Assembly (NCBI GenBank): GCA_965113315.1 | Contig: OZ220374.1 | Direction: 5' to 3' (one strand) | Length of the DNA: 64,000 nucleotides | From: Podarcis vaucheri | Lineage: Eukaryota | Shown: positions 23,150 to 61,383 of the stretch, piece by piece | Numbering within the stretch: the stretch's first letter is position 1 | Layout of the letters: each line of letters starts with the position of its first letter | Position numbers and translations under genes: made by a program | Notes under the pieces: generated by a model | Told to the model about the DNA's origin: nothing | The model's database searches: none | The model's input: the letters and a program-made list of their open reading frames with translations, nothing else

Positions 23150-23329
23150 GCAGCTTGTCAATTTCAACATTTGGTCACGTGACCAGCGCCTCCTTGCTAA
23201 GGATGGGGATAGATTTCCACGTCAGCTTTACGTCTCCAAATTTCTTACTTCACGGATCTGCTTCAAAGAGGCAGCTGCATTAGAGAATCATGTTAAGCTC
23301 GGCTAATGCGGAGAGCCCGAGGTAGCCTA
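23150..23329 (+). promoter_or_regulatory. HoxA11 proximal promoter and leader
   Basis: Perfect 14-bp palindrome TGGTCACGTGACCA at 23172-23185 (USF-type E-box) upstream of the CDS. Confidence 0.75.
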
Positions 23330-48454: not shown

Positions 48455-48728
48455 CCCTTTGCATAAAAACATATGGCTTTGCTATAAAAATGATGACGGG
48501 AAAACACTGACCCATTAATAGCCTGCGGACTGATTTATACTTTATTGTTCTGCTGCCCGGCCATGTGACGCGAGGCAGCCAATGGGCTGACAGGCAGCCT
48601 TCAACTTATTAGGTGACTGTACTTCTTCGTGAGGACCAAGTTGTTACATGAAATCTGCAGTTTCATAATTTCGCCAGGTCTTGCCTCTCCTTTTTTTGCA
48701 CTGGGGCTGGGGCTGGGGCTTGGCTTGG
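48455..48728 (+). promoter_or_regulatory. HoxA9 proximal promoter and leader
   Basis: CATAAAA/TATAAAA Cdx-Hox-type sites, E-box variant CATGTG 48562-48567, CCAAT 48579-48583; resembles the conserved HOXA9 upstream block. Confidence 0.75.
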
Positions 48729-59184: not shown

Positions 59185-59354
59185 AGGAGGAGATTGGAGG
59201 ATGGGGTCATATGACTGGTCACGTGGTGGAGGCAGCTCAGTCCAAAAGAAAATGGGGTTTGGTGTAAATCTGGGGGTGTAATGTTATCATATATCACGCT
59301 ACCTCGTAAAACCGACACGGAAGCCTACCGGACCACAAATCACCGGTCAAAATT
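59185..59354 (+). promoter_or_regulatory. HoxA7 proximal promoter and leader
   Basis: Reverse CCAAT (GATTGG 59191-59196), GTCACGTG 59218-59225, then the conserved Hox7 leader. Confidence 0.75.
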
Positions 59355-59733
59355 ATGAGTTCTTCGTATTATGTGAACGCTCTTTTTAGCAAATATACGA
59401 CGGGGGCTGCTTCTCTCTTCCAAAATGCGGAGCCCACGTCTTGCTCCTTTGCTACCAACTCGCAGAGAAGCGGCTATGGACCAGGCGCTAGCGCGTTCAC
59501 CTCCTCCATGCCTGCCTTGTACAACGTGAACAGCACCATATATCAAAGCCCGTTCTCTTCCGGATACAGCCTGGGCTCCGATGCCTACAACCTGCATTGC
59601 TCCTCTTTTGATCAGAACATTCCCGTCCTTTGCAATGACTTAACCAAAGCCAGCTGTGACAAAGCGGAGGACAGCAACCTGCACAGCCAGGCGGAGAGTA
59701 ATTTCCGGATATACCCCTGGATGAGATCTTCAG
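59355..59733 (+). CDS. HOXA7: Homeobox protein Hox-A7, exon 1
   Basis: MSSSYYVNALFSKYTTGAASLFQNAEPTSCSF...FRIYPWMRSS (YPWM hexapeptide); donor G|GTATGG at 59733/59734. Confidence 0.98.

Positions 59734-60960: not shown

Positions 60961-61383
<423 letters not shown>

What the first reader, a model, noticed from the sequence alone, without database searches (positions are those of the whole stretch)
59252..59358. Chained stop-start uORFs in the HoxA7 leader, possibly encoding a conserved 25-aa peptide
Seen: uORF1 59252-59281 (MGFGVNLGV*) ends in a TAATG overlap with uORF2 59281-59358 (MLSYITLPRKTDTEAYRTTNHRSKL*), whose TGA overlaps the HoxA7 ATG as ATGA. Two successive stop/start overlaps resemble termination-reinitiation coupling. 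As I recall the human HOXA7 leader, it has the same frame and length with mostly third-position differences, which would suggest constraint on the peptide. Inhibitory Hox uORFs are known in general; a peptide-dependent or coupled function here is inference.
Basis: partly seen in the sequence, partly recalled or inferred. Interest (0 to 1): 0.75.

Follow-up and report, generated by a model that had tools for sequence, protein, structure and literature searches.

The report
Conserved HoxA7 leader with overlapping uORFs
Two short upstream reading frames overlap each other and the start of the HoxA7 gene, but the sister gene HoxB7 keeps the same DNA without either start codon, so the stretch is likely conserved as promoter or leader sequence, and the frames would act at most as ordinary translation dampers rather than as a conserved peptide or a ribosome relay.

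Summary
In detail: uORF1 (59252-59281) overlaps uORF2 (59281-59358) as TAATG, and uORF2 stops on the HoxA7 start as ATGA.

The peptide and relay readings are not supported. The paralog HoxB7 of this genome keeps 57 of 74 bases of the uORF2 stretch without an indel, yet has neither ATG and has a stop at codon 3. Differences fall 6/5/6 over codon positions. Only 1 of 14 shared-residue codons differs synonymously, against 36 of 57 in the homeobox (p=0.0002), so the constraint is on nucleotides. ATGA is automatic: 9 of 9 group 5-8 Hox starts examined begin so. The full chain arises in 1.6% of shuffles. There is no TURBS core.

CCAAT and E-box promoter motifs lie just upstream. A mouse leader of about 112 nt (PMC9456764) would contain both uORFs. 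However, a CAGE-based survey of all 39 Hox leaders does not list Hoxa7 among its 13 with conserved uORFs (PMC8892498).

Best reading: a group-7 promoter/leader element. In long-leader mRNAs uORF1 would shield the HoxA7 start from inhibitory uORF2. HoxA7 orthologs could not be compared. Interest 0.3.

The parts
59252..59281 (+). uORF1, 9 codons plus stop, strong start context; its stop overlaps the uORF2 ATG; ends 73 nt before the HoxA7 ATG
59201..59281 (+). longer version of the uORF1 frame from an upstream ATG (26 aa); it starts among the promoter motifs, so it is likely not in the main mRNA
   Evidence: position against motifs
59281..59358 (+). uORF2, 25 codons plus stop, weaker start context; its stop overlaps the HoxA7 ATG
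59258..59357 (+). group-7 conserved leader/promoter element shared with HoxB7 (80 of 103 columns identical); identical blocks at 59258-59271, 59289-59298, 59300-59318, 59335-59344 and 59352-59357; both upstream ATGs lie outside these blocks
59193..59197 (-). inverted CCAAT box, 162 nt before the ATG (HoxB7: 160 nt)
   Evidence: function inferred from the Hoxa9 promoter layout in PMC9456764
59208..59225 (.). two E-boxes (59208-59213 and 59220-59225); HoxB7 has one CACGTG E-box 143 nt before its ATG
   Evidence: in mouse Hoxa7 a double E-box mutant eliminated promoter function (PMC9456764); orthology of the two pairs is inferred
59243..59260 (+). projected transcription start zone, not measured: 59243 from the mouse ~112-nt leader; 59258-59260 from the HoxA9 CCAAT-to-start distance
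   Evidence: inference
59355..59733 (+). HoxA7 coding exon 1
61061..61383 (+). HoxA7 coding exon 2 with an Antennapedia-class homeodomain

Best explanation
The stretch is a roughly 100-base element shared by HoxA7 and HoxB7 and conserved letter by letter, likely as core promoter and leader sequence, and its two HoxA7-only upstream frames would act, in mRNAs long enough to carry them, as an ordinary peptide-independent scanning control. Shown: the element, its paralog conservation, the loss of both ATGs in HoxB7, the absence of codon-type conservation, and the CCAAT and E-box motifs just upstream. Inferred: ribosomes that start at the strong, short uORF1 terminate on top of the uORF2 ATG, skip it, and reinitiate 73 nt downstream at the HoxA7 ATG. 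Ribosomes that leak past uORF1 and start at the weaker uORF2 stop one base beyond the HoxA7 ATG and are mostly lost. So uORF1 would shield and uORF2 would dampen, with the balance set by start-site choice and start-codon stringency.
For: HoxB7 keeps 57 of 74 nt without an indel, lacks both ATGs and has an in-frame stop. Mismatches are 6/5/6 by codon position, and 11 residue changes match the 10.9 expected from random placement. Synonymous change is 1 of 14 shared-residue codons, against 36 of 57 in the homeobox (p=1.7e-4) and 26 of 54 in exon 1 (p=0.005). A7/B7 is the most conserved of 17 same-group leader pairs (77 of 101 columns, z 16.2; next 7.3). The mouse Hoxa7 upstream region is a promoter that needs its E-boxes, and its leader is about 112 nt, which by projection holds both ATGs (PMC9456764). 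Occlusion of a downstream uORF start by a one-base-overlapping short uORF, followed by reinitiation at the main ORF, is the described mechanism of plant AdoMetDC leaders (PMC2811004). Reinitiation after short uORFs needs a minimum distance, which a direct overlap does not give (PMC5972666).
Against: No start site or ribosome data were obtained for this species. Hoxa7 is not among the 13 of 39 mouse Hox leaders with conserved uORFs defined by somite CAGE and ribosome profiling (PMC8892498). HOXA7 is absent from a human Ribo-seq list of 6,617 uORF and 1,209 overlapping-uORF rows that does contain HOXA1, A9 and A11; whether HOXA7 was expressed in those cells is not shown (PMC4739776). At a 112-nt leader the uORF1 ATG is only 9 nt from the cap, and the HoxA9-calibrated start falls just downstream of it, so the shield may be absent from many mRNAs. 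One paralog pair cannot show what selection acts on HoxA7 alone. A pure promoter reading does not explain why spacing to the ATG is fixed over 74 nt.
Confidence: 0.5

Rival explanations
1. Passengers. The two ATGs are letters of transcription-factor or core-promoter sites. Most transcripts start downstream of them or too close to them, and the uORFs have no translational effect.
For: Hoxa7 is omitted from the CAGE-based list, while all 8 listed genes that I examined here have upstream ATGs in this genome. There is no HOXA7 row in the Ribo-seq uORF lists. The mouse region holds 3 internal refTSS sites (PMC9456764 Dataset S3 row). The uORF1 ATG sits in an AAnATGG word resembling a YY1 site (motif recalled).
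Against: The reported ~112-nt mouse leader would include both ATGs. The omission may have other causes; SI Tables S1 and S2 could not be read. The ATGs lie outside the blocks shared with HoxB7, so they are not needed for the shared element.
Confidence: 0.3
2. Peptide-dependent uORF2. After the A/B duplication HoxA7 gained a conserved 25-residue nascent peptide that stalls ribosomes at the main start, gated by uORF1 as in plant AdoMetDC.
For: The layout matches the tiny/small uORF pair. The shark note gives the same 107-base span (unchecked).
Against: Synonymous sites are as frozen as the others in the paralog comparison, and the two other frames look the same. The indel-free length is also kept in HoxB7, where the peptide cannot be made from an ATG.
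Confidence: 0.12
3. Termination-reinitiation relay. Ribosomes pass from uORF1 to uORF2 to HoxA7 through the two stop/start overlaps, as in calicivirus and influenza B mRNAs.
For: Both overlap types (UAAUG, AUGA) occur here; UAAUG is the influenza B arrangement, and a few cellular cases exist, some without a TURBS (PMC5972666). UGGGG near-matches to the TURBS core lie 102 and 84 nt before the main ATG. The chain occurs in 1.6% of shuffles.
Against: There is no exact UGGGA core in 200 nt, and folding is no better than shuffles (z -0.16; two-sequence consensus z 0.02). ATGA is present at 10 of 19 Hox starts examined, and the published HoxC8 uORF ends the same way. Leaky scanning and ordinary reinitiation reach the main ATG without a relay. 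HoxB7 is expressed from the same element with no uORF (expression assumed, not tested).
Confidence: 0.05
4. A shorter non-AUG uORF shared by both paralogs starts at the in-frame ACG 59 nt before the main ATG and ends on it.
For: Both A7 and B7 have an in-frame ACG at -59 with A at -3 (B7 also has G at +4), and the frame is open from there in both.
Against: There is no codon-type conservation in that frame. The ACG lies inside a longer identical block, so its conservation needs no separate cause.
Confidence: 0.03

Closest known systems
Conserved inhibitory Hox uORFs (Ivanov et al. 2022, PMC8892498: Hoxa1, a9, a11, b9, c4, c8, c9, a6, c10, d10, d11, c13, d1)
   Same: Short AUG uORF in a short Hox leader; uORF2 has a suboptimal context by their definition (no G at +4). 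The window's own HoxA9 and HoxA11 uORFs match their 7- and 12-codon lengths and contexts.
   Different: Hoxa7 is not on their list. Here there are two chained uORFs, the first in strong context. Translation and transcript inclusion are not shown.
Plant AdoMetDC tiny/small uORF pair (review PMC2811004)
   Same: A short upstream uORF overlaps the next uORF's start by one base and would occlude it, allowing reinitiation at the main ORF.
   Different: There the first uORF is 2-3 codons with the weaker AUG, and the second is 48-55 aa, peptide-conserved, sequence-dependent and polyamine-responsive. Here the first is 9 codons with the stronger context, the second stops on the main ATG, and no peptide constraint or ligand is evident.
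Hoxa promoters once read as hyperconserved leaders or IRESes (Akirtava et al. 2022, PMC9456764)
   Same: CCAAT and E-box motifs lie directly upstream of a short leader; mouse Hoxa7 is one of their tested cases.
   Different: They dissect the E-boxes upstream; the conserved 100 nt next to the ATG and its uORFs are not addressed in the passages I read.
TURBS-dependent termination-reinitiation (caliciviruses, influenza B; cellular GAD and SLAMF1 candidates; review PMC5972666)
   Same: Stop/start overlaps; SLAMF1 has a 29-codon uORF whose stop overlaps the main start.
   Different: No UGGGA core and no motif 2/2* structure here; the upstream frames are short uORFs that need no special reinitiation signal.

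Membership tests
Conserved inhibitory Hox uORF (Ivanov 2022) | AUG-initiated uORF ahead of a Hox main ORF | tested here: met
Conserved inhibitory Hox uORF (Ivanov 2022) | uAUG in suboptimal context (no purine at -3 and/or no G at +4) | tested here: met
   met by uORF2 (G/T); not by uORF1 (A/G)
Conserved inhibitory Hox uORF (Ivanov 2022) | lies downstream of the major CAGE start | not testable with these tools
   no start-site data for this species; the mouse papers point both ways
Conserved inhibitory Hox uORF (Ivanov 2022) | present in at least 90% of placental orthologs, with ribosome footprints | not testable with these tools
   no ortholog DNA obtained; absent from one human Ribo-seq list, HOXA7 expression there unknown
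Conserved-peptide uORF (CPuORF) | excess of synonymous over non-synonymous change in the uORF frame | tested here: not met
   paralog comparison only: 1 synonymous and 11 residue-changing codons, random expectation 10.9; orthologs untested
Conserved-peptide uORF (CPuORF) | start, frame and stop kept in homologous leaders | tested here: inconclusive
   lost in paralog HoxB7; an unchecked note reports the same layout in a shark HoxA7
Conserved-peptide uORF (CPuORF) | sequence-dependent repression in reporters | not testable with these tools
   bench test
TURBS termination-reinitiation | overlapping or close stop and restart codons | tested here: met
TURBS termination-reinitiation | [quoted passage not shown] | tested here: not met
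   0 exact matches in 200 nt; 3 UGGGG near-matches
TURBS termination-reinitiation | motif 2/2* stem presenting motif 1 | tested here: not met
   folding energy no lower than shuffles; a weak stem is not excluded
Hoxa CCAAT/E-box promoter | E-box and CCAAT box upstream of a short leader | tested here: met
   in both A7 and B7
Hoxa CCAAT/E-box promoter | promoter activity that depends on the E-boxes | not testable with these tools
   shown for mouse Hoxa7 in PMC9456764, not for this genome

The most novel reading that the evidence does not exclude
HoxA7 carries a vertebrate counterpart of the plant AdoMetDC switch, kept since early jawed vertebrates: a strong 9-codon uORF masks the start of a 25-codon uORF whose nascent peptide stalls ribosomes on the HoxA7 start codon. 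It is overprinted on a promoter element that HoxB7 kept without the switch, so the two group-7 paralogs respond differently to translation state.
Probability: 0.12. Interest if true: 0.7.

Novelty: new member of a known kind. Interest (0 to 1): 0.3.

Why it matters
If the uORFs are translated, HoxA7 joins the Hox genes whose dose is tuned by start-codon stringency. It would add a shield-and-trap layout not among the 13 published cases, and the A7/B7 pair would be a natural experiment (same element, uORFs in one paralog only). More likely the lesson is ordinary: deep conservation next to a Hox start codon is nucleotide-level, and an ATGA overlap there carries little information. The open point worth a test is what fixes the sequence and spacing of the group-7 element, the most conserved of the 17 paralog leader pairs compared.

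Tried and rejected
Reads: no RNA holder was listed. Four runs laid on the 334 bases upstream of the uORFs gave nothing in 4 of 4, which is no test. The start site and expression in this species stay open.

Orthologs: one metagenome scan with the A7/B7 exon-1 alignment gave 104 pattern matches and 0 confirmed relatives. The scan's look-alike and nearby look-ups were empty.

RNA structure: single-strand z -0.16 and -0.22; two-sequence consensus z 0.02, with 2 of 24 pairs changed on both sides; no Rfam match in the HoxB7 locus (the A7 locus was not scanned).

TISU-like reading of the uORF1 start: 8 of 12 letters of a recalled consensus, not pursued.

A shared module in other Hox groups: of 18 other leaders only HoxB7 aligns (z 21.3; next 2.9). 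Starts of A5, C4, C5 and D4 were not located in the fetched stretches, so these genes were left out. Start assignments for A10 and D9 are uncertain.

The first 14 codons of the CDS are too few to calibrate codon bias. The four-fold-site test alone is not significant (1 of 7 against 10 of 15, p=0.063).

Papers without a Hoxa7 hit in the main text: PMC13060157 and PMC12048685. The 2026 RAPPL-Seq preprint mentions only HOXA7 CDS footprints. Unreadable supplements that may bear on the verdict: the SI PDF of PMC8892498 (Tables S1 and S2, per-gene CAGE starts), the SI PDF of PMC7530721 (list of 1,517 animal conserved-peptide uORFs), and the 3' part of the mouse Hoxa7 leader cell in PMC9456764 (cut at 400 letters).

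Full report
Observation. The gene is HoxA7: the window holds the homeoboxes of A13, A11, A10 and A9 before it, A6 and A4 follow on the same contig, and the spliced frame gives 234 aa with an Antennapedia-class homeodomain. The uORF1 start is in strong context (A at -3, G at +4), the uORF2 start has G/T, and the main start has A/A. The uORF1 frame is also open from 59201.

Is the layout more than chance? Of 19 Hox starts located in this genome, 10 begin ATGA, including 9 of 9 from groups 5-8. Any uORF in that frame that reaches such a start must therefore stop on it. The HoxC8 uORF, which is on the published list, does the same. In 20,000 dinucleotide shuffles of the 112-nt leader, 28% had a uORF stopping on the main start and 1.6% had the full chain. 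The chain is uncommon for one leader but not for a pattern noticed after the fact.

The paralog test. A DNA search of the genome found one other match, the HoxB7 leader (locus L002). Over the uORF2 stretch B7 keeps 57 of 74 bases with no indel, but it has ATT in place of the ATG, a stop at codon 3, and no ATG at the uORF1 site. Differences fall 6/5/6 over the codon positions. Among codons with the same residue, 1 of 14 differs synonymously, against 36 of 57 in the A7/B7 homeobox (Fisher p=1.7e-4) and 26 of 54 in exon 1 (p=0.005). The 11 residue changes equal the random expectation of 10.9, and the other two frames look alike. The four-fold-site subset alone is weaker (p=0.063). Identity is concentrated in five blocks, and both ATGs fall outside them. 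Among 17 same-group leader pairs A7/B7 is by far the most conserved (77 of 101 columns, z 16.2; next 7.3), and no other of 18 Hox leaders shares the element. So the conserved thing is a nucleotide sequence older than the A/B split, which does not need the uORFs. Limit: one paralog cannot show what selection acts on HoxA7 alone, and no ortholog DNA was obtained. Even if it is right, near-identity at synonymous sites over that distance would itself call for nucleotide-level constraint (inference).

Promoter context and the start site. An inverted CCAAT box (-162) and two E-boxes (-147, -135) precede the uORFs; B7 has the CCAAT box at -160 and an E-box at -143. In PMC9456764 (passages; supplement passages) the mouse Hoxa7 upstream region is a promoter, a double E-box mutant eliminated its function, and the leader is about 112 nt. 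Projected here, that start is near 59243, 9 nt before the uORF1 ATG, so both uORFs would be in the mRNA. Calibrating instead on HoxA9 (CCAAT at -150 here, mouse leader 83-85 nt) gives 59258-59260, which drops the uORF1 ATG and keeps uORF2. Against inclusion or use: PMC8892498 (passages and section 6; four spreadsheets searched; SI PDF unreadable) examined all 39 mouse Hox leaders with somite CAGE and lists 13 with conserved uORFs, and Hoxa7 is not one of them. All 8 of those 13 that I examined have upstream ATGs in this genome, and the window's A9 and A11 uORFs match the published lengths and contexts, so the omission is notable. A human Ribo-seq list (PMC4739776; supplements searched; passages) has HOXA1, A9 and A11 uORFs but no HOXA7 row; HOXA7 expression in those cells is not shown. 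Several start sites may coexist (3 internal refTSS sites in the mouse row), which would reconcile the papers; that is inference.

Mechanism. A relay of the calicivirus or influenza B type needs a UGGGA core and a presenting stem (PMC5972666, passages and section 16). There is no exact core within 200 nt, there are three UGGGG near-matches, and folding is no better than shuffles. Under ordinary scanning the layout predicts something else. A ribosome finishing the 9-codon uORF1 sits on the uORF2 ATG with no distance to reload initiator tRNA, so it would skip that ATG and could restart 73 nt downstream at HoxA7. A ribosome that starts at uORF2 ends just past the HoxA7 ATG and would mostly be lost. 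This shield-and-trap logic is described for plant AdoMetDC leaders (PMC2811004, passages), where, unlike here, the second uORF is peptide-conserved. I give it 0.5, the passenger reading 0.3, a HoxA7-only regulatory peptide 0.12, a relay 0.05 and a shared ACG-started uORF 0.03. All translation steps are inferred.

Known and new. Inhibitory Hox uORFs and Hoxa promoters are published. I found no paper describing the HoxA7 uORF pair in searches, in a library that lacks most subscription papers. From recall, two Nature letters of 1987-88 (Burglin, Wright and De Robertis; Kessel and Gruss) discussed conserved leaders and upstream frames of group-7 homeobox mRNAs. I saw only the reference line of the second and nothing of the first, so prior description is possible but unverified. 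An unchecked note of this scan reports the same 107-base layout in a shark and also rejects a relay (e1-9851589). It is a lead for deep conservation of the ATGs, not independent support.

Verdict: a real feature and a new member of a known kind at best; interest 0.3. The bold reading (a peptide switch overprinted on a promoter element) has probability about 0.12 and would deserve 0.7.

Noticed in passing
window 48648-48668 and 23290-23325: The published HoxA9 (6 aa plus stop) and HoxA11 (11 aa plus stop) uORFs are present with the contexts described in PMC8892498; used as positive controls.
   Followed up: partly
window 59258-59357 and L002 1540-1641 (minus strand): The HoxA7/HoxB7 leader pair is far more conserved than any other of 17 same-group Hox leader pairs and keeps fixed spacing to the ATG; its function is unexplained.
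   Followed up: partly
L012, 11 nt before the HoxC8 ATG at 2452 (minus strand): A 4-codon uORF also stops on the main start as ATGA.
   Followed up: no
L002, 59 nt before the HoxB7 ATG at 1542 (minus strand): An in-frame ACG in strong context opens a 20-codon frame ending on the HoxB7 start; the same ACG is in HoxA7.
   Followed up: partly
window about 61255-61380: The HoxA7 C-terminus has a glycine/serine/alanine-rich stretch ahead of the acidic tail.
   Followed up: no
G000:C10:16094178-16094357: The Hox cluster on contig C10 (taken as HoxC) has a homeobox match at the position where a group-3 gene would lie, which the mammalian C cluster lacks (recalled).
   Followed up: no
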